9,716 nt of DNA from the IMG/VR virus record IMGVR_UViG_3300029504_000019; one strand, given 5' to 3'. Position numbers and translations under genes: made by a program. The DNA comes from a virus (Duplodnaviria > Heunggongvirae > Uroviricota > Caudoviricetes). Under the pieces are notes generated by a model that was not told the origin of the DNA, searched no databases, and was given only the letters and a program-made list of their open reading frames with translations. The number at the start of each line of letters is the position of its first letter. Position 1 is the stretch's first letter. Below are positions 1-9,716 of the stretch, one piece after another.

Positions 1-2474
1 ATCTGCAAGGTCCGGCAACTTCCGACTCCGGTATAGAAGTTAACCAGAATATAGCTGTCGCCAGAGCGGGTGACATTGTAAGCGCCTGATTCGGCATTCC
101 ATGGAACGCCCCCATCCGCATCGGCATACGCATCCGTTGCTCTTCTGGCAAAAGCAGCCACATGCGCGGCGGTTAAAGTGATATCAGTAGAACCATCAAA
201 TGGAACACCGGATATTTTTCTTGCAGTCTGAAGTTTTGTAGCAGTTGCAGCATTACCAGTGGTGTTCTGATTACCCGTAGTGTTTACACCTGGAAGGTTA
301 ATATTTGCAGAACCGTCGAAAACAACTCCACCGATAGATCTTGCCGTCTGCAATTTCGTGGCTGTACTTGCATTACCATCCAATGAACCAGTTAATCCAC
401 CTGTAACAGACAACGGACCTGAAACTGTTCCTCCGGTTGTTGGCAGTGCTCCAATATCTAACGGCGTCGGTTTCTGATGTGTGCTATACATCGTATAAAC
501 AACACCATCGGTAACGCTGGAAGGCTTACTCGCTGAATATGTTGGCGATGTATAAATAGAAACTGTCGCATTTGCAGTACAATCCCAATGGATATTTACA
601 CGAGTCGCATAATTGCCAATCTCAACGTAAATATCATATGTATCGCCGGATGTGTTGATCCAGGCGAAATTCGTTAATCCGACGGCTGTACGCTTCCACA
701 AAGCCCCGGTAATTCCTTTGGGGTTTCCATTGCCTGCTCGTAGAACCAGTTCTGAAATGCCTGCCTGATGTGGGGAACCGACGTTGTAACCAGCGCCACC
801 AATCAATGCGATGTAAACGATGGAACTCGCTTGTGGCATGGTAACCGTAGCCAGTTTGAACCACCCAGCCCCGCCAGAGAAAGACATCGTTACTGAATTT
901 AAAGTACCAATATCTTTCGGCGTTAATGTTATATCCGCAGTCAGTGCTTTTCCGTTAACTTTTCGGTTAGATGGCACCCTGCTATTCGCATTGTCATTGG
1001 CTGCTTTAACTGCTTTTGGCGTTGCGGCCAGCGATTCACTGGTGCTATCAACAGCACTGCTAAGTTTCACAACACCTTTAGTTGTAAGGCTTGCGTCTTC
1101 CATCGCAACTGCACCGGCAATCTCTTCAGCACGATCAGCAGCAGCTTCCGCACGGGTCGCAGCGGATTCAGCAGCAGTTTTGCTCTGAGATGCTGCCGTC
1201 GCACTGCCTGCCGCCTCTGTTGCTTTCGTGGATGCCGTCGTGGCGCTGCCCTTCGCTGCTGACGTCTGTCTGGTCGCCTCATCTTTTGAAGCAGACGCAG
1301 ATGATGCCGATGACGCTGCCGAACTGGCGGACGATGCGGCTGCCGTTTTTGAGGATTCTGCACGGGTTTCCGACGCTTTCGCATTCGTTTCGGATGTCTT
1401 CGCTGCGGAAGCAGACCTCGCTGCTGCGCTGGCCTGTACAGCGGCTTCGCCAGCCTTCGTTGTGGCTGTTGAAGCGGACGATGCAGCACTTTCTGCCGAT
1501 TTTCCGGCGGCGGTGGCACTGGCTGAGGCCTGCCCGGCACTTGTTGACGCGGCACTGGCAGACGACGCAGCCGCTGTTTTTGAGCCTGCCGCAGCTGAGG
1601 CACTCTGTCCCGCTGCCGTTTCAGAAGCCTTGGCGTTCGTCTCGGACGTTTTTGCCGCCTTCGCAGAATTTGCTGTCGCCGTTGCCGAGGAAGCTGCGCT
1701 GCTGGCGCTCGAGGCTGCGCTCGTTTCTGATGATTTTGCCGCCTCTTTTGAAGCCGACGCATCCCGGGCTGAGGTGGCAGCTTCTGACGCTTTCGTGGTC
1801 GCGGTGGATGCTGAAGTGGCTGCTGATTGTTGTGACGCTGCCGCATTCGTTTCTGACGTTTTTGCCGCAGCGGCACTGGTGGCCGCCGCGCTTTTTGAGG
1901 ACTCTGCAGCGGCAGCACTTTTTGATGCTTCAGTGGCCTTTGCTGATGCCGTTCCTGCGCTGGAAGACGCTGACTGAGCCGACGAAGCGGCCTGTCCGGC
2001 TGACGTGCTGGCTGCGCGTGCTGAGCCTGCAGCATCAGTCGCATGGGTTGCCGCCTCACGGGCAGATGTGCCGGCATCGCCGGCTGACTTCTTCGCGGCT
2101 GCCGTGTTCTGTGCCACTGCGGACGCGTTACGCGCCACCTCTTCCACCATCAGTTCAAAACGGCGCAGTGCCTCTGGCCGGACATCATCCTCCGTCATTG
2201 CACCGAGGAAATCATTCAGTGTGCCCGGCTTTGAGTCCTCATATACGGTGATAATCCCGGCGTGTGACGGCGGGAATCCCTCCACCAACAGACTGACGCT
2301 GTACTGACCATACTCGACGTCCATTGTGTAACGCCCGGCTTCATCCGGGTTTTCTGAGGCCACTGTGTTCACCACCACCGTGGTGCTGTTGCGCCTGGCC
2401 TTTAGCTGAATGGTGCAGTTTTGTATCGGCTTACCTGCGCCATCTTTCAGTACACCTGAAATCCGTACTGCCAT
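1..2474 (-). CDS. stf: Side tail fiber protein Stf, 5' portion (ATG at 2474..2472; at least 824 codons, no stop before window start)
   Basis: Hand translation of the minus strand from the ATG at 2474 is open to position 3; an in-frame stop lies just upstream at 2516..2514. The N-terminus (MAVRISGVLKDGAGKPIQNCTIQLKARRNSTTVVVNTV...YGQYSV...GFPPSHAG...TVYED) matches my recollection of the lambda/Rac Stf N-terminus; it is followed by a long Ala/Ser/Thr-rich region and the conserved tail-fiber motif TTKGVVKLSSAVDSTSESLAATPKAVK. GGGGGG sits 3 nt upstream of the ATG as a Shine-Dalgarno. Not in the supplied ORF track because it lacks a stop in the window. Confidence 0.85.
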   Translation of the reverse strand, partial: MAVRISGVLKDGAGKPIQNCTIQLKARRNSTTVVVNTVASENPDEAGRYTMDVEYGQYSVSLLVEGFPPSHAGIITVYEDSKPGTLNDFLGAMTEDDVRPEALRRFELMVEEVARNASAVAQNTAAAKKSAGDAGTSAREAATHATDAAGSARAASTSAGQAASSAQSASSSAGTASAKATEASKSAAAAESSKSAAATSAAAAKTSETNAAASQQSAATSASTATTKASEAATSARDASASKEAAKSSETSAASSASSAASSATATANSAKAAKTSETNAKASETAAGQSASAAAGSKTAAASSASAASTSAGQASASATAAGKSAESAASSASTATTKAGEAAVQASAAARSASAAKTSETNAKASETRAESSKTAAASSASSAASSASSASASKDEATRQTSAAKGSATTASTKATEAAGSATAASQSKTAAESAATRAEAAADRAEEIAGAVAMEDASLTTKGVVKLSSAVDSTSESLAATPKAVKAANDNANSRVPSNRKVNGKALTADITLTPKDIGTLNSVTMSFSGGAGWFKLATVTMPQASSIVYIALIGGAGYNVGSPHQAGISELVLRAGNGNPKGITGALWKRTAVGLTNFAWINTSGDTYDIYVEIGNYATRVNIHWDCTANATVSIYTSPTYSASKPSSVTDGVVYTMYSTHQKPTPLDIGALPTTGGTVSGPLSVTGGLTGSLDGNASTATKLQTARSIGGVVFDGSANINLPGVNTTGNQNTTGNAATATKLQTARKISGVPFDGSTDITLTAAHVAAFARRATDAYADADGGVPWNAESGAYNVTRSGDSYILVNFYTGVGSCRTLQ
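190..370 (-). repeat. Tandem ~40-codon tail-fiber repeat inside stf (two copies of the motif G-N-A-[AS]-T-A-T-K-L-Q-T-A-R-x-I-[SG]-G-V-x-F-D-G-S-x-[DN]-I)
   Basis: Stf residues about 700-720 (NASTATKLQTARSIGGVVFDGSANINL) and 740-765 (NAATATKLQTARKISGVPFDGSTDITL) repeat at a 40-residue spacing; the underlying DNA segments around 210-250 and 330-370 are visibly similar. Confidence 0.5.
1125..2117 (-). repeat. Ala/Ser/Thr-rich low-complexity coding region of stf with dispersed ~30-bp near-identical direct repeats
   Basis: Stf residues about 120-450 are almost entirely A/S/T/K/E. The motif AAKTSETNA recurs at residues about 202, 272 and 357, matching near-identical DNA blocks at 1381-1409, 1633-1665 and 1846-1876. 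The region is GC-rich and open in several frames on both strands, which explains the spurious 249-, 336- and 386-aa track ORFs. Confidence 0.6.
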
Positions 2475-2485
2475 ATTCCCCCCAC

Positions 2486-2511
2486 AAAAAAGCCCGCCTG
2501 AACCGGCGGGC
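2486..2511 (-). terminator. Rho-independent terminator downstream of the lom fragment (minus strand)
   Basis: Read on the minus strand, a perfect 7-bp GC-rich stem (2511..2505 pairing with 2498..2492, 6-nt loop) is followed immediately by a run of six T (2491..2486). It lies 28 nt after the lom stop and just upstream of the stf Shine-Dalgarno and ATG. Confidence 0.6.
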
Positions 2512-2538
2512 TGTCATAACACTGTGTTACCTGGCTAA

Positions 2539-2814
2539 TCAGAATTTATAACCGACACCAACGATGAAACTGTTGGTACGCCAGTCACCGCTGCCGGAGC
2601 CTTCATAAGCGACGTCAACGGCCACGGATTCGGTCGGGTTAAACTGCACGCCAGCTCCCCACGCCAGAGACGTGTTGCTGTGGCGACCGTCATCACTTCC
2701 GGTCAGCACATCGTGCGTTTTCCCCTTGTTGTCAGTTACGCGGATATAATCCCCGGAGAAAGTCGACACACGGCTGTAAGCCATAACCAGTTGCAGCAAC
2801 CTTTGACGCTCGTT
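2539..2814 (-). pseudogene. lom: lom (Lom/Ail/OmpX-family outer membrane protein), 3' fragment only; signal peptide and N-terminal barrel strands absent
   Basis: The translation ends ...SLAWGAGVQFNPTESVAVDVAYEGSGSGDWRTNSFIVGVGYKF, matching the lambda Lom C-terminus (...AYEGSGSGDWRTDGFIVGVGYKF) and the terminal Phe typical of beta-barrel outer membrane proteins. The frame is closed by a stop at 2817..2815 and the track ORF begins at a TTG, so only about 85-90 of roughly 200 codons are present. Confidence 0.8.
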
Positions 2815-2987
2815 TCACACCTGCCGAACTGTGAATATTGAATCCCTCCAGACGCCCCAACACGCCCTCACGCAGTAGCTGTTCAGTGCCGGATTCATTC
2901 ACTTTAAACAATACAGACTGTTTTCCGCGCAAATTAGCAATGGCAGTGGAGCCAAGCACCATCTGCAGATCGGTTGTCGGTGCGCCG

Positions 2988-3284
2988 TTAACCAGCCTCA
3001 TAAATTGCCAGCTCGTTCAGCTCTCCGGAGAGACTGGTAAACATGCTGTTAATAGCAGTGCGGTTAACCTTTCTGACGCTCGCCAGAAGTGACTCCAGGC
3101 GCTTAACGGTAAAATTACCTGGATCGAGGCTGTCCAGTGCTATCAGCAGGCGAGCAGTAAGTTCCGCATCGCTGTCATTCAGTATTTTCACCATTCTGGC
3201 AGCCACGCCAGTGCTATAGCGGGATATCCAGACTGCATGAGCAATTGATTCATCACGCAGCCGTTCATTCACGGTTTGCATCAT
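2988..3284 (-). pseudogene. Stub (98 codons) of the gene that follows portal, possibly the N-terminus of a head-morphogenesis/minor capsid protein, ending prematurely
   Basis: Its ATG (3284 or 3281) overlaps the portal stop (3267..3265) by about 20 nt, typical translational coupling in a morphogenesis operon, but the frame closes after 98 codons and no capsid or tail genes follow. The functional assignment is a guess from position. Confidence 0.35.
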
Positions 3285-4671
3285 TGATTTCCATCAGCAT
3301 TACACTCTGATTTTTTAATTCATCGATCACTTCCTCTGGACGGGAATCCTGATCGATAAATTTCAACGCCTGCAACACCCGAACCGCATCAATCTGACGT
3401 ATATCACCGCCCTGACGCAATGACTGAACAGCCAGCGCGGAGGATGAGTCAAACACCTGGGCAGATACATCCAGTTCAGTGCGCACATCCACATTGCCAC
3501 CGCAACTCTCTCCGATCCATTCCGCCATTATCTGGAGAATATTATCGAGGGCATCTTCGAGGGAGTTCGCCATTGTATAAAGCGGCGAGTTTTCCTGCAT
3601 TCGCTCTTCATTAGTCTGATCAACAGATTTGGTGGATGTATTTTCAGCACGCAGAAGTTTAGCGCCGGCATGACGCATCTGATTTTCCAGCTTCTCAAGT
3701 GATGTTTCGCCAGATTCTATCGCTGCGCCACTATGTTCAACATATTCGAGGCCATTTTTTGTTCTGTCCTCAAAAATCGTAGCGGTGGATGCACCAACCG
3801 TCAGTTCTTCATTCCTGTCCAGCCCGTAGGCCACCAGCAATGGAACGCGGGTAACATGAAGAATATTGTCCTGCTCGCTCTGGCTTTGCCAGTGCTTGAT
3901 ATTCAGCAAGCCAAGATTAAGCAATGGCGGTGTACCACGCATAAATCCTGTTTTCTTCGTGTACAGTGTTACCAGAGGAATATCATCACGGCTGGTATTC
4001 CATGACTCATGAAGCGTCCAGACAGATTCGCCATTAGTGCCTTCGCTACGTCGATAAATTTCAACTCGACGGGGCATAATATGGCGGATCTGCTCCACCT
4101 TCTTCTGCCCGAAATCATCACCATCAATAATGATGACCTCTTTTATACGCAAATCAGTGAGAACAACTTTCCCTTTTTCAACTTTCGATTTCCATCCAAT
4201 AACCTGGCGTGGATTCAGCATCGTAACGTACGGACGACCACCGGTCGCGTTTTCATCGGCTTTTGTACGAATCTCTTTCATATCCGTTCGTGGATAGTCC
4301 ACCAGCGCATGTGCCACACCATACTGAAATGCGAGGCTGAAAAATTGCTGCGCCCACACATCCAGTCGGCTCCCCTCCATGTCGATATTTTCTGCATATT
4401 CCCTGATTTTTGCCGGCGTTTCCTCACTCAATACTGTCGGCTCTGCAAATATGCGCCCAATATTTTGCTTGATGCTTTCTTCATACACAGGAAGTAGCGT
4501 AGCCACAGACAGGCGTTTTTTATAAGCGTCTTCATCTTCGTTAGGCCATTTTGGGAGATAATTTTCCCCCTGCCTGCGCATTTCAAGCGTACCGCCCATC
4601 AGTGCGTCGTTAATATCCCACGCCTCCAGCATATCGTTATAGTCGAGGTTGGGTGTTGATATATCAGCCAT
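3265..4671 (-). CDS. Probable phage portal protein (468 aa)
   Basis: Its ATG (4671..4669) lies 2 nt after the large-terminase stop (TAA 4676..4674); the size of about 470 aa, acidic C-terminal region and position directly after TerL are typical for portals. No motif-level confirmation is possible without a search. Confidence 0.6.
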   Translation of the reverse strand: MADISTPNLDYNDMLEAWDINDALMGGTLEMRRQGENYLPKWPNEDEDAYKKRLSVATLLPVYEESIKQNIGRIFAEPTVLSEETPAKIREYAENIDMEGSRLDVWAQQFFSLAFQYGVAHALVDYPRTDMKEIRTKADENATGGRPYVTMLNPRQVIGWKSKVEKGKVVLTDLRIKEVIIIDGDDFGQKKVEQIRHIMPRRVEIYRRSEGTNGESVWTLHESWNTSRDDIPLVTLYTKKTGFMRGTPPLLNLGLLNIKHWQSQSEQDNILHVTRVPLLVAYGLDRNEELTVGASTATIFEDRTKNGLEYVEHSGAAIESGETSLEKLENQMRHAGAKLLRAENTSTKSVDQTNEERMQENSPLYTMANSLEDALDNILQIMAEWIGESCGGNVDVRTELDVSAQVFDSSSALAVQSLRQGGDIRQIDAVRVLQALKFIDQDSRPEEVIDELKNQSVMLMEINDANRE

Positions 4672-4673
4672 AA

Positions 4674-5981
4674 TTAAATCCGAAGTGATGTGACTCTTCC
4701 GGTCGGTTTGACAATAGGGAATTGCTTAACGATGAAATAACCTCCGGCATCATTCGGGTGATCATTGCCAGATTTTTTATCAGGCTCCCCCTTCTCATCC
4801 CAGACCTGTTGCTCCAGAGATTCGGCATATAACGGGCAACGCTTCACATTAACTTTATAGCGACGCTCACCATTGGCATTGCAGAACATTGCATTCATTG
4901 AGTTAACGCGATCTTTTACTGGCGGGTTCGAGCTGTTCACCACAACGTTAAAACCAGCCTGCTTAAGCTGGGCTATATCCGTCGTACTTGCGTTACTTGA
5001 TTTTCTGGAATCCCCGGAAGCATCTGGATAAATATAAATTTCCCTCACTTTCCGGTAATCATTCCCATCATACAGCCAGAAGCGTTCTTTAATGATGCGG
5101 ATCATATCCGGCGTATCGTAGGCATTGATGATTTCAGTTACCGCACATGGAAGCCCCAAACGCAGCACATGGACGATTCCCGCCATCTTTCCAACGTTAA
5201 AATCCATCCCAATATAAATCGGCTCCCCTGGCTGCTCCACTTCTTCGCAATTATTCAGTTTCCGGTCAAACTGATGGTAAACAGTACCACTTGTCAGGTT
5301 AGTAAACTGTCCTCGAAGATAGGCTTTAATCAGCTCTGGAGGGTATGATTCAAGAAGCGAAGGAATGTAATCTGCTGGCAGGTTCTTTTCATTATCGAAA
5401 GTAGATGCCTGCACCAGACCATACAGTGAGGCCAGCTCTGTTTTTTCACGCACGGCTTTAACAAACTGCTCGTAGACAAATTTGAATCCCTCCGGCGTGG
5501 TTGTAACGTCAATACCGTTGCGAAGTCCATCAATCTTATAACGCATACGTGCAATTATCTTGCGCCACGCCGTTCTGGCTTTTTCCTTCGGCAAAATGTC
5601 CAGTTCATCCACCAACGCATTACCAATTTTGAAACCGACGATCGTTTGTGGCTTCTCCATCGATCTGCAGATAGTGGTTCCCCGATACTGGCGTCCGTAA
5701 TAAAAGTGAACCTCTTTATTTCCCTCATTAATTTTTACGTTCAATCCCCAGTCAGCAGCAACTTCTTCCACTGTAAGGTAAAAAATATCGCGAATTTGGG
5801 GATACGTTGGCGCAAAATATCCCTGATTTATACCTGGATGCTCCCAAATCCCCTTGCATATGCCGCCACAACCAACCCATGTTTTGCCCGAGCCAAAACC
5901 AGCAATATAGGCTTTAAATTTATGGGGCATTGAAAGAAATCGCGCCTGAGGCACATTAAGCGTCGGAGAGATCATCTTCAT
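4674..5981 (-). CDS. Terminase large subunit (ATPase plus RNase H-like nuclease)
   Basis: Walker A motif (YIAGFGSGKTW) near the N-terminus, Walker B-like (NALVDELDI), and a C-terminal nuclease domain with acidic motifs (IYIGMDFN, YIYPDASGD, GNDHPNDAGGYF). The track start at 5984 is GTG; ATG codons follow at 5981 and 5975, and AAGGAG sits 8 nt upstream of the 5975 ATG, so the true start may be 5975. Confidence 0.9.
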   Translation of the reverse strand: MKMISPTLNVPQARFLSMPHKFKAYIAGFGSGKTWVGCGGICKGIWEHPGINQGYFAPTYPQIRDIFYLTVEEVAADWGLNVKINEGNKEVHFYYGRQYRGTTICRSMEKPQTIVGFKIGNALVDELDILPKEKARTAWRKIIARMRYKIDGLRNGIDVTTTPEGFKFVYEQFVKAVREKTELASLYGLVQASTFDNEKNLPADYIPSLLESYPPELIKAYLRGQFTNLTSGTVYHQFDRKLNNCEEVEQPGEPIYIGMDFNVGKMAGIVHVLRLGLPCAVTEIINAYDTPDMIRIIKERFWLYDGNDYRKVREIYIYPDASGDSRKSSNASTTDIAQLKQAGFNVVVNSSNPPVKDRVNSMNAMFCNANGERRYKVNVKRCPLYAESLEQQVWDEKGEPDKKSGNDHPNDAGGYFIVKQFPIVKPTGRVTSLRI

Positions 5982-6684
5982 CACTCCTTACTCTGGCATC
6001 AACCACATTAATATTGATCGCCACAGGCTGGGGATGTTCATTATCTTCCACCGTTTCGATCTCTTTGCGCAGCTTCTGGTTTTCCATTCTGCGCCGTTCA
6101 ATTTCCAGTTCCTGTAGCCGTTTATCTGCACATAAAGCCCCGCCAGCAGAAAACAAACGCAACAATTCACGCCGGGCGGCAGCCTTATCCTCCAGCAGGA
6201 TCTCAACGCCGAATTTTCCGAATTTTGCCCCTGCATATAATTGCCGCGCATCCCCATCAAGCAGAGTGGTATCAGCCATATAAAGCTGTCCCGTTCCCTC
6301 ACCGCAGCACTTCGGGCAGTCCGGATTGGGTATGGCGTTATCAACAAAGCCGAGGCCTCCATATTCCGGTTCGGGTTTGCCATCTCTGGAAGCCTGCGCC
6401 GCTGCCTTGTCGAATTCTGCTATATCGCGCCACTGGTAGAGATGATTCTCGCCCCAGCAATAACGGCAGTTAACACGGCGAAATTGTGCAAGCTGATTGG
6501 GGTCGGCCAGGACAATAGCCATCAACTGACTCACTAGTAAATCCAGGTCTGCGGTATAGCGTTTCTGGTACTGATTGCGGAAGTAGCTGATAGCGCGAAA
6601 AACCCTGGCATTTCTAAGCATACGACTGGCGTTGCTGTTAGCTGTCGCACCTTGCCCCTCATAACCGGCTACCGGGCAAAACAT
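5956..6684 (-). CDS. Candidate terminase small subunit / DNA-packaging protein with a Cys4 zinc-ribbon-like motif, coiled-coil segment and acidic tail
   Basis: A 242-aa ORF directly upstream of TerL, overlapping it by about 25 nt. It contains CRYCWGENH (Cys 73/76) and CPKCCGEG (Cys 123/126/127), a charged heptad-like segment (QELEIERRRMENQKLRKEIE) and an acidic C-terminus (SDEDDLSDA). The call rests on position and architecture, not on recognised homology. Confidence 0.5.
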   Translation of the reverse strand: MFCPVAGYEGQGATANSNASRMLRNARVFRAISYFRNQYQKRYTADLDLLVSQLMAIVLADPNQLAQFRRVNCRYCWGENHLYQWRDIAEFDKAAAQASRDGKPEPEYGGLGFVDNAIPNPDCPKCCGEGTGQLYMADTTLLDGDARQLYAGAKFGKFGVEILLEDKAAARRELLRLFSAGGALCADKRLQELEIERRRMENQKLRKEIETVEDNEHPQPVAININVVDARVRSDEDDLSDA

Positions 6685-6723
6685 CCGTCAACAGTTCATC
6701 AATTTCTGTCGGGATGAAGCCTG

Positions 6724-7089
6724 TCAGGGAGACACAAAATCAGCATTGATTAGGTCCGACAGCTCCATCCGCAACAGATCTTCATCCCAGCCAGCATTCA
6801 TCGGCAGGCGATTATCTGCCAGGCGGTACGCCTTTTTCTGCTCATCCGTCAGGCCAGACAGAACAATGACCGGAACAGAATCCATTTTGAGCATTTCAGC
6901 CGCCATAACACGACCGTGACCCGCAATAATTTCGCCCTTTTCGTCAATCAGCACCGGATTAGTCCAGCCGAATTGCTTAATACTTTCTACCAGTTGTGCC
7001 ACCTGCTCAGGGCTGTGCGTCCTGGCGTTGTGCGCATACGGTGACAATTCTTGTAATGGGCGATAGACTATCTTTAATTTCTCGCTCAT
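6724..7089 (-). CDS. ParB-like nuclease domain protein (ParB N-terminal / sulfiredoxin fold), 121 aa
   Basis: The translation has the ParB N-terminal signature around GWTNPVLIDEKGEIIAGHGR (conserved GxGR arginine finger) and a start context of AAGG then ATG. Small ParB-like proteins at this position are common in Rac-like prophages (the K-12 counterpart is ynaK), but I do not assert identity. Confidence 0.75.
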   Translation of the reverse strand: MSEKLKIVYRPLQELSPYAHNARTHSPEQVAQLVESIKQFGWTNPVLIDEKGEIIAGHGRVMAAEMLKMDSVPVIVLSGLTDEQKKAYRLADNRLPMNAGWDEDLLRMELSDLINADFVSP

Positions 7090-7103
7090 ACAGCCTTGCT
7101 TTA

Positions 7104-7140
7104 TGAATAAAACGCACCCCAGCAGCCAGTGCTACTGGGG
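7104..7140 (-). terminator. Possible intrinsic terminator after trkG (minus strand)
   Basis: On the minus strand an imperfect hairpin (CCCCAG 7117-7122 pairing with CTGGGG 7135-7140, plus inner pairs 7124-7126 with 7131-7133) is followed by GTTTTATT. The stem is interrupted and the T tract short, so this is tentative. Confidence 0.4.
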
Positions 7141-7226
7141 ACGGAGGGGTTGCTGGTAAAGTTAGGTATTGGATCAATGAGTGAGTCAACATAATATTAA
7201 ACTCACAATTATAAATCAGCCATATA

Positions 7227-8684
7227 TTAGGAGCGCCAAAAAAAACCTGAAAACAATATAATAACAGGATAAATTTCAAGGCGACCAAGAATCATAGCTA
7301 TGCACATTAAACATTTTGCAATGTCATTAAGCACTCCGAATGACGATGCAGTAGCCCCAAAACCTAATCCCATATTATTAATACATGCAGCCACTGTTGC
7401 AAATGATGTAAGAAAATCATATCCCATACCATTTAACACCAGTATAAAAAACACCGTGAAGAGAGTATAAAGAAAAAAGAAACTCCATACAGACCTCATT
7501 ACACGATCTGTAACTATCTTCCCTCCTACATTTACACTCAACAACGCTCTGGGATGAGAAAGCTGATTTATCTCGTGTTTGCTTTGTTTGAAAAGTATAA
7601 GAAATCGAAGTGACTTAATTCCACCACAAGTTGAACCTATACATCCCCCAAAGAAACTTGACAACAGCAAAAACACTATCGTGTGCGTGGGCCAACTTGC
7701 ATAATCCTGCGTAGCTAAACCATTATCAGTGAGCATGGAGCTGGCAAGAAAAAACGAATGAATAAAACTTCCATGCAAGTCATACATACCTATATGCCAG
7801 ACCTGGAAAGAGGTAACAATGATCACCCCTAAGGCTATTAACAGAAAGAAACGAAGTTCAATATCTCTGATTAAAGGTTTTATCGTTTTCCTGCTAATAA
7901 CAATATACCAAAGAGTGAAGTTGAAAGCCGATAGCAGGGAAAAAGAACCAGCCACCAGCTCAACCAAATAGTTATTAAAATATCCGATACTCTCGCTATG
8001 AGTTGAGAAACCACCAAGCGAAACTGTGGAAATCCCGTGACAAATAGCATCAAACAAAGGCATTCCTGCAAGTCTATAACAGACAATACAAGCAATACCT
8101 AATAAAGAATAAGTTATCCACAGTGTCCGTGACGTATCGGCCAGGCGGGGAGTGAGTTTGTCATCCTTAAATGGCCCCGGCATTTCTGACTGATAAAGCT
8201 TTGCACCACCAATACCCAATAATGGCAATACAGCAACCGCCAGAACAATAACTCCTAAACCACCTATAAAATTTAACTGTGACCGATAGTACAAATATGC
8301 CCGAGGTAATGAACTAACATCATCAATTACAGTTGCTCCTGTTGTTGTTATTCCAGAAACCCCTTCAAACAGAGCATCAATGAACGTTAAATTAAGTTCT
8401 GAGTCAATCCATAAAGGGAATGCACTAATAACAGAAAACAAAATCCAAAACATTACAATTATAATAAACCCATCACGGGTACGTAATTGAATGCCAGATT
8501 TCTTAGTTGTATACCACGCTCCGCCACCAATGCAAAAAAATATAACGAAAGTTATAAAGAAAACGAACAGGCTTTTTTCTTTATAAAACAATGCTACAAC
8601 CATTGGTGGCAACATTGAAAGACTATAGAGCCAAACCAGGAACCCACACATATGAGTAACAACTCTTACATGAGATGTATTCAT
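7227..8684 (-). CDS. trkG: TrkG/TrkH-family potassium uptake transporter (about 485 aa from the ATG at 8684)
   Basis: Polytopic membrane protein with TrkH/KtrB selectivity-filter-like glycine motifs (GVSGITTTGATV, TVSLGGFSTH, CINNMGLGFG); the sequence from MNTSHVRVVTHMCGFLVWLYSL matches my recollection of E. coli TrkG. The track start at 8702 is a TTG six codons upstream; the ATG at 8684 is preferred. The gene is visibly AT-rich relative to its neighbours. Confidence 0.9.
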   Translation of the reverse strand: MNTSHVRVVTHMCGFLVWLYSLSMLPPMVVALFYKEKSLFVFFITFVIFFCIGGGAWYTTKKSGIQLRTRDGFIIIVMFWILFSVISAFPLWIDSELNLTFIDALFEGVSGITTTGATVIDDVSSLPRAYLYYRSQLNFIGGLGVIVLAVAVLPLLGIGGAKLYQSEMPGPFKDDKLTPRLADTSRTLWITYSLLGIACIVCYRLAGMPLFDAICHGISTVSLGGFSTHSESIGYFNNYLVELVAGSFSLLSAFNFTLWYIVISRKTIKPLIRDIELRFFLLIALGVIIVTSFQVWHIGMYDLHGSFIHSFFLASSMLTDNGLATQDYASWPTHTIVFLLLSSFFGGCIGSTCGGIKSLRFLILFKQSKHEINQLSHPRALLSVNVGGKIVTDRVMRSVWSFFFLYTLFTVFFILVLNGMGYDFLTSFATVAACINNMGLGFGATASSFGVLNDIAKCLMCIAMILGRLEIYPVIILFSGFFWRS

Positions 8685-8685
8685 A

Positions 8686-8760
8686 TCTAAATATTCTTTC
8701 AATTATAACCACCTTGCTGCAATATTATGATTATACTGTATAAAATTTAACTCCTCTTAG
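8686..8760 (-). promoter_or_regulatory. AT-rich region upstream of trkG with candidate sigma70 -10 hexamers (possible autonomous promoter)
   Basis: The 119-bp gap between the Rz stop and trkG carries two perfect TATAAT hexamers on the minus strand (8707..8702 and 8735..8730), but neither has a convincing -35 element at 16-18 bp. Speculative. Confidence 0.25.
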
Positions 8761-8821: not shown

Positions 8822-9286
8822 TTACTTTAAACACTGCTCGGTTATGTATTGCTGAGCACCTTCAAGTTGGGCCTGCATCATTACCAGTCGTTCCCGGAGG
8901 GTGAAATAATCCCGTTCAGCGGTGTCTGCCAGTCGGGGGGAGGCTGCATTATCCACGCCGGAGGCGGTGGTGGCTTCACGCACTGACTGACAGACTGCTT
9001 TGATGTGCAACCGACGACGACCAGCGGCAACATCATCACGCAGAACATCATTTTCAGCTTTCGCATCAGCTAACTCCTTCGTGTATTTTGCATCGAGCGC
9101 AGCAACATCACGCTGACGCATCTGCATGTCAGTAATTGCCGCGTTCGCCAGCTTCAGTTCTCTGGCATTTTTGTCGCGCTGTTCTTTGTAGGCGATGGCG
9201 TTATCACGGTAATGATTAACACCCCATGACAGGCAGACGACGATGCAGATAACCAGAGCGGAGATAATCGCGGTTACTCTGTTCAT
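8822..9286 (-). CDS. Rz: Rz i-spanin (inner-membrane spanin subunit)
   Basis: Near-identical over most of its length to lambda Rz as I recall it ([21 protein letters not shown]...[44 protein letters not shown]...[45 protein letters not shown]...). N-terminal transmembrane helix then coiled coil. The ATG at 9286..9284 overlaps the endolysin stop (TGA 9285..9283) as ATGA; the track start at 9298 is a GTG four codons upstream. Confidence 0.9.
8881..9066 (-). CDS. Rz1: Rz1 o-spanin (outer-membrane lipoprotein), fully embedded in Rz in the +1 frame
   Basis: 61-aa ORF (ATG 9066..9064) with a lipobox (LVVVGC), a Pro-rich tract ([19 protein letters not shown]), and the classic embedded-gene arrangement inside Rz. 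Confidence 0.85.
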
Positions 9287-9716
9287 TGCTGACCCCACAA
9301 ACAGATTTCACGCTCAATCTCACGACGAGTCATGAGACCTTTCCATTGCTTACCGCCAGCATATGTCCAGCGACGTAGCTGATCACATGCGCCTTTGATA
9401 TCGCCCTGGTTTATTTTGCGAAGAAGCGTCGATGTTCTGAAATTGCCAGCACCCACGTTGTAAACGAATGAGTAAAGAGCGCCGCGCGTTGTTTCCGGTA
9501 TATCGACTTTGATGTACGGGTTAATTTGTCTGGCGACCGTGGCAAGGTCTTTATTCAAGAGTGTTTTGCATTCTGCTTTGGTATACGTTTTACCGAGCAT
9601 GATGTCTTTTCCTGTATGCCCGTGACATACAGTCCATACACCAACAATATCTTTGTATGGTATGTAGCTGACACCTTCCAGACCATCGTTACCACTTGGG
9701 CCAGTGATTAACACTG
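9283..9716 (-). CDS. R: Endolysin, T4-lysozyme-type (GH24) of the P21 R / SAR-endolysin kind; 5' end (SAR signal-anchor) lies outside the window
   Basis: The translation (...[36 protein letters not shown]...CLWGQQ) matches my recollection of the P21 R21 SAR endolysin, with the Glu/Asp/Thr catalytic positions (GLEG, YKDIVG, WTVCHG) present. The frame is open to the window edge, and the first track codon is an internal GTG (Val), so the gene is truncated by the window and not biologically. Confidence 0.9.

What the first reader, a model, noticed from the sequence alone, without database searches (positions are those of the whole stretch)
5956..6684. Candidate small terminase with an unusual Cys4 zinc-ribbon-like motif
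The 242-aa protein preceding and overlapping TerL has two Cys pairs (CRYCWGENH at residues 73-76, encoded around 6457..6468; CPKCCGEG at 123-127, encoded around 6304..6318), a coiled-coil-like charged segment and a strongly acidic tail. Classical TerS proteins such as lambda Nu1 are not known to me as zinc-binding, so this is either an atypical TerS DNA-recognition domain or a different packaging accessory protein. The pac or cos site may lie within or next to this gene.
Basis: inference. Interest (0 to 1): 0.45.

Follow-up and report, generated by a model that had tools for sequence, protein, structure and literature searches.

The report
Truncated small terminase with conserved Cys4 module
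The ORF is the broken-off back two-thirds of a phage small-terminase gene in a decayed Rac-like E. coli prophage, and its four cysteines belong to a strictly conserved, probably zinc-binding insertion that seems not to have been described for phage small terminases.

Summary
The ORF, both Cys pairs, the coiled coil, the acidic tail and the 20-nt overlap with terL are all at the stated coordinates. The ORF is not an intact gene. It holds codons 128-364 of a 364-aa small terminase (TerS) of the Terminase_2 / SF6 G1P family. A 1,867-bp deletion removed the first 127 codons, including two of the three helices of the DNA-binding HTH. The deletion fused the remainder to a frameshifted ParB-like gene, which supplies the ATG by chance. 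The surrounding window is a decayed Rac-like E. coli prophage.

The Cys4 motif is real. C-R-x-C-x-G and C-P-x-C-x-G-x-G are invariant in 230 of 230 diverse homologues that cover the region. These include TerS of Bcep22-like, Yersinia, Klebsiella, Pseudomonas and Erwinia phages. The motif sits in a ~80-residue module inserted at the tip of the oligomerisation hairpin, where SF6 G1P has about 11 residues.

The module is net acidic. It is also shared unchanged by TerS alleles that pair with unrelated TerLs. I therefore read it as a metal-stabilised structural cap of the TerS ring, not as the DNA reader or the TerL adaptor. Zinc binding was not tested. No phage TerS zinc module turned up in the searched literature. 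TerS identity: known. Window copy: pseudogene. Module: apparently a new variant.

The parts
5956..6669 (-). terS remnant: codons 128-364 plus stop of a 364-aa Terminase_2-family small terminase
   Evidence: Differs at 1 of 237 residues from intact TerS of phage vB_EcoS-613R10 and from P0005. Pfam PF03592 28.1 bits against a cut-off of 26.1, and PHROG 51.
6670..6671 (-). deletion junction; the dinucleotide TA is shared by both parental sequences (microhomology)
   Evidence: Alignments to intact ParB-like and terS sequences. The deletion is 1,867 bp relative to L003. The identical junction occurs in independent assemblies L009, L010, L011 and L014.
6672..6684 (-). ParB-gene-derived sequence read out of frame; it supplies the chance ATG (6682-6684) and codons 2-4 of the ORF
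   Evidence: GACGG abuts the ATG directly, so no Shine-Dalgarno sequence is properly spaced.
6508..6648 (-). surviving third helix of the Terminase_2 HTH (full-length 135-146) and first oligomerisation-core helix (148-181)
   Evidence: AF2 secondary structure. The family profile aligns this stretch to SF6 G1P chain residues 20-105.
6265..6498 (-). Cys4 module (full-length residues 185-262): strand, CRxCxG knuckle, helix, GGxG[FY] loop, CPxCxGxG knuckle, strand
   Evidence: pLDDT is mostly above 90 across this stretch. Invariant columns are listed. It is an insertion relative to SF6 G1P and to the Pfam profile.
6457..6468 (-). first Cys pair, C73-x2-C76 (full-length C195/C198)
   Evidence: 230/230 invariant.
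6307..6318 (-). second Cys pair, C123-x2-C126 (full-length C245/C248); the adjacent C127 is not conserved
6145..6264 (-). beta-hairpin (272-286) and second core helix (289-302); homologous to SF6 G1P chain residues 117-153
5959..6123 (-). coiled-coil-like helix (310-336) and acidic C-terminal tail; inferred TerL-specific binding segment
   Evidence: Alleles P0005 and P0047 are almost identical to about residue 297 and then diverge, and their downstream TerLs are unrelated.
4674..5975 (-). terL (433 aa, Terminase_6N + Terminase_6C), apparently intact; overlaps the terS remnant by 20 nt
6724..7089 (-). ParB-like (ynaK-type) gene remnant; a 1-nt deletion between 6734 and 6735 shifts the frame, and the 3' part is lost in the 1,867-bp deletion
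   Evidence: The frameshift is shared only with metagenome contig L011.

Best explanation
The ORF is a pseudogene remnant of terS in a decayed Rac-like prophage of E. coli. The gene order is rrrD-Rz-trkG-ParB'-terS'-terL-portal, followed by head-gene fragments, a lom fragment and stfR. A 1,867-bp deletion with TA microhomology removed four things: the 3' end of a ParB-like gene, a TAGT glycosyltransferase gene, a 69-codon ORF, and the first 127 codons of terS. The intact protein is 364 aa (41 kDa) and has these parts in order: an extra N-terminal HTH; a K/Q/A-rich linker; the SF6-G1P-type HTH; core helix 1; a ~80-residue Cys4 module; a beta-hairpin; core helix 2; a coiled coil and a C-terminal tail. 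Inferred mechanism in intact relatives: the two CxxCxG knuckles clamp one metal ion, most probably Zn2+. This rigidifies a module at the tip of the oligomerisation hairpin, the place where SF6 and P22 TerS carry only a short beta-hairpin 'cap'. The module would then form an enlarged crown at one end of the TerS ring. The HTH domains would read pac DNA, and the C-terminal coiled coil and tail would dock the cognate TerL. The window copy keeps the ring core, the Cys4 module and the TerL-binding tail. It has lost DNA recognition and any proper start signal, so it cannot act as a pac-recognising TerS. Shown: the truncation, family membership, invariance of the motif, its position as an insertion, its acidity, and the tail/TerL co-variation. 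Inferred: metal binding, the cap role and ring assembly.
Confidence: 0.72

Rival explanations
1. One reading: an intact, atypical TerS whose Cys4 zinc ribbon is the DNA-recognition domain, with pac or cos in or next to the gene.
For: The four Cys are invariant. An invariant Arg sits inside the first knuckle. Zinc fingers do bind DNA in herpesvirus TerS. Pac sites often lie inside terS in headful phages.
Against: The window ORF is truncated and its start codon is foreign. The family already has a canonical HTH, and in E. coli relatives a second N-terminal one. The module is net acidic in most homologues. It is inserted in the oligomerisation core. No repeats above chance lie in 5800-7300.
Confidence: 0.12
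2. The remnant is not dead. A DNA-binding-deficient TerS fragment that still oligomerises and binds TerL is expressed, and it acts as a dominant-negative decoy that interferes with packaging by superinfecting Rac-like phages.
For: The remnant keeps the ring core, the Cys4 module and the TerL-specific tail, with only 1 aa changed. terL and the portal gene downstream are intact. The same allele is seen in several independent samples.
Against: No spaced Shine-Dalgarno sequence precedes the ATG, and no promoter-like site on the coding strand was found nearby. Near-identity to intact alleles is equally what a recent neutral deletion would give. The region shows many different deletions, IS insertions and fusions in other strains, which is typical decay. 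The allele is rare: it is absent from 5,426 complete genomes.
Confidence: 0.06
3. The four cysteines bind iron, either rubredoxin-like Fe or a 2Fe-2S cluster, rather than zinc. This would make TerS assembly redox- or iron-sensitive.
For: CxxC...CxxC is also the rubredoxin ligand pattern. Sequence alone does not identify the metal.
Against: The CxxCxGxG glycine pattern is that of DnaJ-type zinc centres (established knowledge; the motif is visible in E. coli DnaJ). No aromatic rubredoxin core signature or Fe-S family hit was found.
Confidence: 0.07
4. The module is a degenerate HNH/beta-beta-alpha-Me nuclease, or another catalytic zinc-finger domain, fused into TerS.
For: HNH domains are flanked by two CxxC pairs about 40-50 residues apart and often accompany terminases (established knowledge; see PMC12967558, listed). 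A mostly conserved His follows the first knuckle (H203).
Against: H203 is replaced by F or Y in 35 of 230 sequences. No HNH or other Pfam match appears even at E<=10. No structural match was found.
Confidence: 0.03
5. It is a different packaging accessory protein, not a TerS.
For: It is larger than the classical 15-21 kDa TerS.
Against: There is strong profile and fold homology to SF6 G1P on both sides of the insertion. It occupies the position directly upstream of terL and overlaps it. No other TerS candidate lies in the intact loci.
Confidence: 0.02

Closest known systems
Bacillus phage SF6 / SPP1 G1P small terminase (Pfam Terminase_2, PDB 3ZQP, 2CMP)
   Different: SF6 G1P is about 145 aa with roughly 11 residues between the two homologous stretches. 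Here about 80-90 residues carrying an invariant Cys4 site are inserted there. E. coli relatives also add an N-terminal HTH, a low-complexity linker and a C-terminal coiled coil, giving 364 aa (41 kDa). The window copy lacks residues 1-127.
Burkholderia phage Bcep22 gp36 TerS and TerS of Bcep22-like and related phages (BcepIL02, DC1, CSP3, Skulduggery, PEp14, Parlo, SopranoGao)
   Same: They have the same Terminase_2 core with the same Cys4 module, and all four Cys and the Gly pattern are conserved. They are true family members at 34-41% identity.
   Different: They are about 250-265 aa, without the extra N-terminal HTH and linker. In Bcep22 terS is not followed directly by terL.
DnaJ cysteine-rich domain (CxxCxGxG zinc centres)
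   Same: The second knuckle, C-P-x-C-x-G-x-G, matches the DnaJ repeat exactly, with both Gly invariant. The first knuckle is C-R-x-C-x-G. Two such repeats form one Zn(Cys)4 centre in DnaJ (established knowledge; motif comparison).
   Different: There is no detectable homology: hhalign probability is 6% and there is no Pfam DnaJ_CXXCXGXG hit at E<=10. The two knuckles are 44-76 residues apart, with a helix and a GGxG[FY] loop between them. The resemblance is at motif level only.
Herpesvirus TerS (HSV-1 pUL28, HCMV pUL56) zinc fingers
   Same: These are the only small-terminase proteins reported to contain zinc fingers in the 2022 TerS review (PMC9611059).
   Different: They are unrelated in fold and sequence: about 85 kDa helical solenoids that do not form rings of small subunits. 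There is no homology to the phage protein.
Bacillus phages Sam46/Sam112 TerS (FtsK-gamma + Terminase_2)
   Same: This is another Terminase_2 TerS enlarged by an extra N-terminal winged-helix or HTH domain (PMC8190038). It is comparable to the extra N-terminal HTH of the E. coli relatives.
   Different: The extra domain is a different one, and no Cys4 module is reported.

Membership tests
Terminase_2 (PF03592) / SF6 G1P-type small terminase | Match to the family HMM above the curated threshold | tested here: met
   Window ORF 28.1 bits against a cut-off of 26.1. Full-length P0005 35.9 bits. The family profile hits SF6 G1P 3zqp at E=2.9e-22.
Terminase_2 (PF03592) / SF6 G1P-type small terminase | N-terminal helix-turn-helix DNA-binding domain | tested here: not met
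Terminase_2 (PF03592) / SF6 G1P-type small terminase | Oligomerisation core (two helices with an intervening strand or hairpin) homologous to G1P | tested here: met
   Two aligned stretches: profile 12-96 with G1P chain residues 20-105, and profile 189-225 with G1P chain residues 117-153. The AF2 elements agree.
Terminase_2 (PF03592) / SF6 G1P-type small terminase | Gene immediately upstream of terL | tested here: met
   20-nt overlap with a Terminase_6N/6C terL.
Terminase_2 (PF03592) / SF6 G1P-type small terminase | Ring oligomer (8-12 subunits) and pac/cos DNA binding | not testable with these tools
   No multimer prediction or biochemistry was available.
Terminase_2 (PF03592) / SF6 G1P-type small terminase | Typical protomer size of 15-21 kDa (PMC9611059) | tested here: not met
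   Full length is 41.0 kDa and the remnant 27.2 kDa. Bcep22-type members are about 255 aa. It is an enlarged variant.
Zn(Cys)4 knuckle pair of DnaJ CxxCxGxG type / zinc ribbon | Two CxxC pairs conserved across the family | tested here: met
   230/230 invariant at all four positions, and 126/126 in A2.
Zn(Cys)4 knuckle pair of DnaJ CxxCxGxG type / zinc ribbon | Gly pattern CxxCxGxG | tested here: met
   Second knuckle: G250 and G252 are invariant. First knuckle: G200 is invariant, and position 202 is G in only 82 of 230.
Zn(Cys)4 knuckle pair of DnaJ CxxCxGxG type / zinc ribbon | Detectable homology to DnaJ CR or another curated zinc-ribbon family | tested here: not met
   hhalign probability 6.3%. 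No Pfam hit at E<=10.
Zn(Cys)4 knuckle pair of DnaJ CxxCxGxG type / zinc ribbon | Fold similarity to solved zinc-ribbon structures | tested here: inconclusive
Zn(Cys)4 knuckle pair of DnaJ CxxCxGxG type / zinc ribbon | Stoichiometric metal binding with tetrahedral Cys geometry | not testable with these tools
HNH endonuclease | Invariant catalytic His, Asn/His metal ligands, and a family HMM match | tested here: not met
   H203 is present in 179 of 230 and is F or Y in 35. No Pfam match.
Lambda Nu1-type or P27-type TerS | Match to the corresponding Pfam or PHROG models | tested here: not met
   Only Terminase_2 and PHROGs 51 and 2606 (TerS) matched.

The most novel reading that the evidence does not exclude
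A large, widely distributed subfamily of bacteriophage small terminases depends on a metal. Relatives of the full-length protein number 1,253 clusters (50% identity) at E<=1e-10, and all 230 checked sequences carry the module. They come from Entero-, Burkholderia-, Pseudomonas-, Erwinia- and Alphaproteobacteria-associated phages and prophages. In this reading, a Zn(Cys)4 centre of DnaJ-like CxxCxGxG knuckles builds a previously undescribed cap domain on the TerS ring. The cap's invariant polar surface (R196, Q206, E212, D260, T261) would take part in packaging initiation, for example by gating the channel or handing DNA to TerL. This would be the first zinc-dependent phage TerS.
Probability: 0.4. 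Interest if true: 0.55.

Novelty: new variant of a known kind. Interest (0 to 1): 0.38.

Why it matters
For this window the result is mostly corrective. A gene caller or reader would take the ORF for a complete TerS, but it is a deletion remnant in a cryptic prophage.

At the family level, how TerS rings recognise DNA and hand it to TerL is still unresolved (PMC9611059). All solved phage TerS are small, metal-free proteins. A strictly conserved Cys4 module at the hairpin tip of a Terminase_2 core offers several things:
- a new structural variant to solve;
- a simple handle for switching ring assembly or function on and off, through Cys mutants or metal chelation;
- a sequence signature (CRxCxG ... 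GGxG[FY] ... CPxCxGxG) for sub-classifying TerS in phage annotation.

The mosaic breakpoint at about residue 298 also marks the TerL-specificity segment of these proteins.

Tried and rejected
1. From memory I guessed that E. coli K-12 ydaY was the C-terminal piece of this TerS. Translating K-12 ydaY shows no similarity, so I rejected it.

2. Homology of the module to the DnaJ cysteine-rich domain: hhalign probability is 6%. Only the motif is similar.

3. HNH-nuclease reading: the candidate catalytic His is not invariant and no HMM hit was found.

4. Fold search with the isolated module returned nothing, so no fold class can be assigned.

5. Sequence search of PDB with the single protein gave only a marginal hit to the Pam5 small terminase HTH. 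The profile search was needed to reach SF6 G1P.

6. Repeats and inverted repeats in 5800-7300: only short pairs of chance grade.

7. Promoter and terminator scan: counts were no more than in the shuffles, and no promoter-like site lies on the coding strand.

8. Rfam scan of the whole window: no family matched.

9. The exact junction was sought in 5,426 complete E. coli genomes and not found. It was found only by exact-protein look-up in short-read and metagenome assemblies.

10. NCBIfam gave only a sub-threshold IS66-TnpA-like HTH hit for the extra N-terminal domain.

11. Literature searches for zinc, CxxC or cysteines in phage small terminases found nothing relevant. Only open-access papers and bioRxiv were searched, so prior description elsewhere is not excluded.
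Full report
**Observation**

The ORF at 5956..6684 on the minus strand encodes 242 aa. Its sequence contains VNCRYCWGENH, with C73 and C76 encoded at 6457-6468. It also contains PDCPKCCGEG, with C123, C126 and C127 encoded at 6304-6318. It has a long charged helix and ends in RSDEDDLSDA. It overlaps the downstream terL by 20 nt; terL is 4674..5975, carries Terminase_6N and Terminase_6C, and its start is taken as annotated in relatives.

**Context**

The window is a decayed Rac-like prophage of E. coli. Reading along the minus strand, it contains:
- a lysozyme gene and an Rz-type lysis gene (8822-9714);
- trkG (7227-8702);
- a ParB-like ynaK-type gene (6724-7089);
- the ORF under study;
- terL;
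- a DUF4055 portal gene (3265-4671);
- a 98-codon stump of the minor head protein gene;
- a Lom C-terminal fragment (2539-2799);
- the 5' part of an stfR-like side tail fibre gene, which runs off the window start.

Megablast finds the pieces at up to 99.9% identity in hundreds of E. coli chromosomes, in many different states of deletion and IS insertion.

**The ORF is a truncated gene**

All homologues align only from ORF residue 5 or 6 onwards. Intact relatives carry a terS of 1,095 nt (364 aa). Examples are the induced phage vB_EcoS-613R10 (ON470590, locus L003) and a 90%-identity protein cluster of 1,423 sequences, represented by P0005.

Between the ParB-like gene and terS, intact relatives also have a 310-aa TET-associated glycosyltransferase (PF20691, E=1.1e-34) and a 69-codon ORF.

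Alignment of the window with both parental sequences places a deletion junction at 6670/6671...GTTTTGCCCGG[TA]GCCGGTTATGAGG..., read on the minus strand. ParB-derived sequence lies at 6672 and above, and terS-derived sequence at 6669 and below. The TA dinucleotide is shared by both. Relative to L003 the deletion is 1,867 bp.

The ORF's ATG (6682-6684) and codons 2-4 (F-C-P) are ParB-gene sequence read out of frame. GACGG abuts the ATG directly, so there is no properly spaced Shine-Dalgarno sequence. No promoter-like site lies nearby on the coding strand.

ORF residues 6-242 equal TerS residues 128-364, with one substitution (F178 for Leu). The decay is therefore recent.

The ParB-like gene also carries a 1-nt deletion between 6734 and 6735, which creates its stop at 6724.

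The junction is absent from 5,426 complete E. coli genomes. It is, however, identical in at least four independent public assemblies, including a human-gut metagenome contig. That contig also shares the ParB frameshift and the same downstream fragments. The allele is therefore real and inherited, not an assembly artefact.

**What the intact protein is**

Pfam Terminase_2 matches above its gathering score: 28.1 bits for the remnant and 35.9 bits for the full-length protein. PHROG 51, 'terminase small subunit', also matches.

A profile built from 126 family members hits the SF6 G1P small terminase (PDB 3zqp) at E=2.9e-22. The match falls in two stretches:
- Profile positions 12-96 align with G1P chain residues 20-105, covering the HTH and the first core helix.
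- Profile positions 189-225 align with G1P chain residues 117-153, covering a strand and the second core helix.

An AlphaFold2 model of the full-length protein, built with that alignment, has a mean pLDDT of 82, with most 10-residue blocks between residues 100 and 300 above 90. Its elements are:

| Residues | Element |
|---|---|
| 6-39 | extra N-terminal three-helix HTH |
| about 45-100 | low-confidence K/Q/A-rich linker |
| 106-146 | G1P-type HTH |
| 148-181 | core helix 1 |
| 185-262 | the Cys4 module |
| 272-286 | beta-hairpin |
| 289-302 | core helix 2 |
| 310-336 | long helix |
| after 336 | disordered tail |

TerS identity is therefore secure. The deletion in the window removes the extra HTH, the linker, and helices 1-2 of the canonical HTH.

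**The Cys4 motif**

I aligned 230 homologues that cover the region. They came from three searches: a search with the E. coli protein, a search with Bcep22 gp36, and an exhaustive search of 1.84 billion 50%-identity cluster representatives.

In this alignment C195, C198, C245 and C248 are invariant in 230 of 230 sequences. So are R196, G200, G231, G232, G250 and G252. Q206, E212, G234, P246, D260 and T261 are nearly invariant.

Every homologue that lacks the full pattern turned out to be a frameshifted, truncated or chimeric prediction.

The signature is C-R-x-C-x-G, then 44-76 residues containing a helix and a GGxG[FY] loop, then C-P-x-C-x-G-x-G.

The module accounts for about 87-89 extra residues relative to the Pfam profile. 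It replaces roughly 11 residues of SF6 G1P.

It occurs in TerS of Bcep22-like podophages and of Yersinia, Klebsiella, Pseudomonas, Erwinia and Serratia phages. It also occurs in prophages of Alphaproteobacteria, Betaproteobacteria and a Gemmata planctomycete.

**What the module probably does**

Three observations constrain function:

1. Position. The module sits between core helix 1 and the strand and helix 2. [quoted passage not shown]

2. Charge. The module is net acidic across the family (median -3, interquartile range -5 to -1), whereas the HTH is basic (median +2). This argues against it being the main DNA-binding surface.

3. Mosaicism. E. coli and Salmonella alleles P0005 and P0047 are almost identical through residue about 297, module included. 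After that they have unrelated C-terminal helices and tails. Their downstream TerL proteins are unrelated at BLASTP level, and their portals belong to different Pfam families. The C-terminal segment is therefore the TerL-specific adaptor, consistent with established work on other TerS. The Cys4 module works with either TerL.

My best reading is a metal-stabilised structural cap of the TerS ring. Zinc is the most likely metal. A rubredoxin-like iron site or an Fe-S site cannot be excluded from sequence. The invariant polar residues around the knuckles hint at an additional conserved interaction that I cannot identify.

**Pac or cos site**

Nothing above chance repeats within 5800-7300.

In intact relatives, the linker-coding 5' third of terS contains four TGCGCAGA octamers within 60 nt. 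The expectation for the whole 10.7-kb locus is 0.39, and none of 200 shuffles reached four. The same cluster is present in E. coli L73. It is a candidate pac element, but it lies in the segment deleted from the window, which has no copy. I did not test it further.

**Comparison with known systems and novelty**

The protein family is routinely annotated 'terminase small subunit', so TerS identity is not new.

The 2022 review of TerS structures describes phage TerS as 15-21 kDa HTH-hairpin-stalk proteins and mentions zinc fingers only for herpesvirus pUL28 and pUL56. Eight full-text searches for zinc, CxxC or cysteines in phage small terminases found no description of this module. No Pfam model covers it.

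I therefore rate the module as a new variant of a known kind. The caveat is that only open-access literature was searched. The window copy itself is an ordinary prophage pseudogene.

**Verdict**

It is TerS-derived and the Cys4 site is genuine and conserved. It is not an intact gene, the module is not the DNA-recognition domain, and no packaging site is evident here.
- Interest is moderate. The value lies in the family-level feature, not in this locus.

Noticed in passing
L003 4766-4824 (terS of phage vB_EcoS-613R10); also L001 6363-6421; absent from the window: Four TGCGCAGA octamers lie within 60 nt in the linker-coding 5' third of intact terS. The expectation for the whole locus is 0.39, and 0 of 200 shuffles reached four. 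This is a possible pac-like element, and it lies in the segment deleted from the window.
   Followed up: partly
L003 2758-4619; L015 1513-3497 (related loci); junction at window 6670/6671: Intact relatives carry, between the lysis/trkG genes and terS, a ParB-like gene followed by a TET-associated glycosyltransferase (PF20691, E=1.1e-34) and a 69-codon ORF. This may be a DNA-modification cassette. All but the 5' part of the ParB-like gene is lost in the window.
   Followed up: partly
window 6724-7089 (-), frameshift between 6734 and 6735: The ParB-like (ynaK-type) gene has a 1-nt deletion that creates its stop codon. The frameshift is shared with one human-gut metagenome contig (L011) but not with three other assemblies that carry the same large deletion. 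It is therefore a later event in a sub-lineage.
   Followed up: yes
P0005 vs P0047; L015 4582-5910 vs window 4674-5975: There is a mosaic breakpoint inside terS at about residue 298. Alleles almost identical over residues 1-297 carry different C-terminal helices and tails, and they are followed by unrelated TerL and portal genes (DUF4055 versus Phage_portal_3).
   Followed up: yes
window 1-2470 (-): This is the N-terminal ~820 aa of an StfR-like side tail fibre, running off the window start. Its Ala/Ser/Thr-rich repeats generate long spurious ORFs in other frames and on the other strand (1067-2077 -, 1091-2251 +, 1228-1977 +).
   Followed up: partly
window 2539-3284 (-): A further large deletion is evident. 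Only a 98-codon 5' stump of the minor head protein gene (2988-3284) follows the portal gene. Next come an 89-codon ORF with no family hit (2732-3001) and the last 81 residues of a Lom/Ail barrel (2539-2799). All capsid and tail-shaft genes are missing.
   Followed up: partly
L001 (E. coli L73) 1562-6564; proteins P0006 and P0029: The terS-terL region decays in many independent ways in E. coli. In L73, IS3 copies interrupt both terS and terL. P0006 is a terS-tail fibre fusion and P0029 is a TAGT-terS fusion, both made by other deletions. In strain BKQWHE terS is truncated directly next to trkG.
   Followed up: partly
P0005 residues 1-45 (deleted from the window): E. coli, Yersinia and Klebsiella relatives have an extra N-terminal three-helix domain, present in 27 of 230 homologues. 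It gives a sub-threshold hit to the IS66 TnpA accessory protein HTH (E=2.7e-4). This would be a second DNA-binding domain in one TerS, reminiscent of the FtsK-gamma + Terminase_2 fusion in Bacillus phages Sam46/Sam112.
   Followed up: partly
window 7227-8702 (-): trkG (a potassium transporter) sits between the lysis genes and the packaging genes, as in K-12 Rac. It is also present in the induced phage vB_EcoS-613R10. It is a known cargo gene of Rac-type prophages.
   Followed up: no
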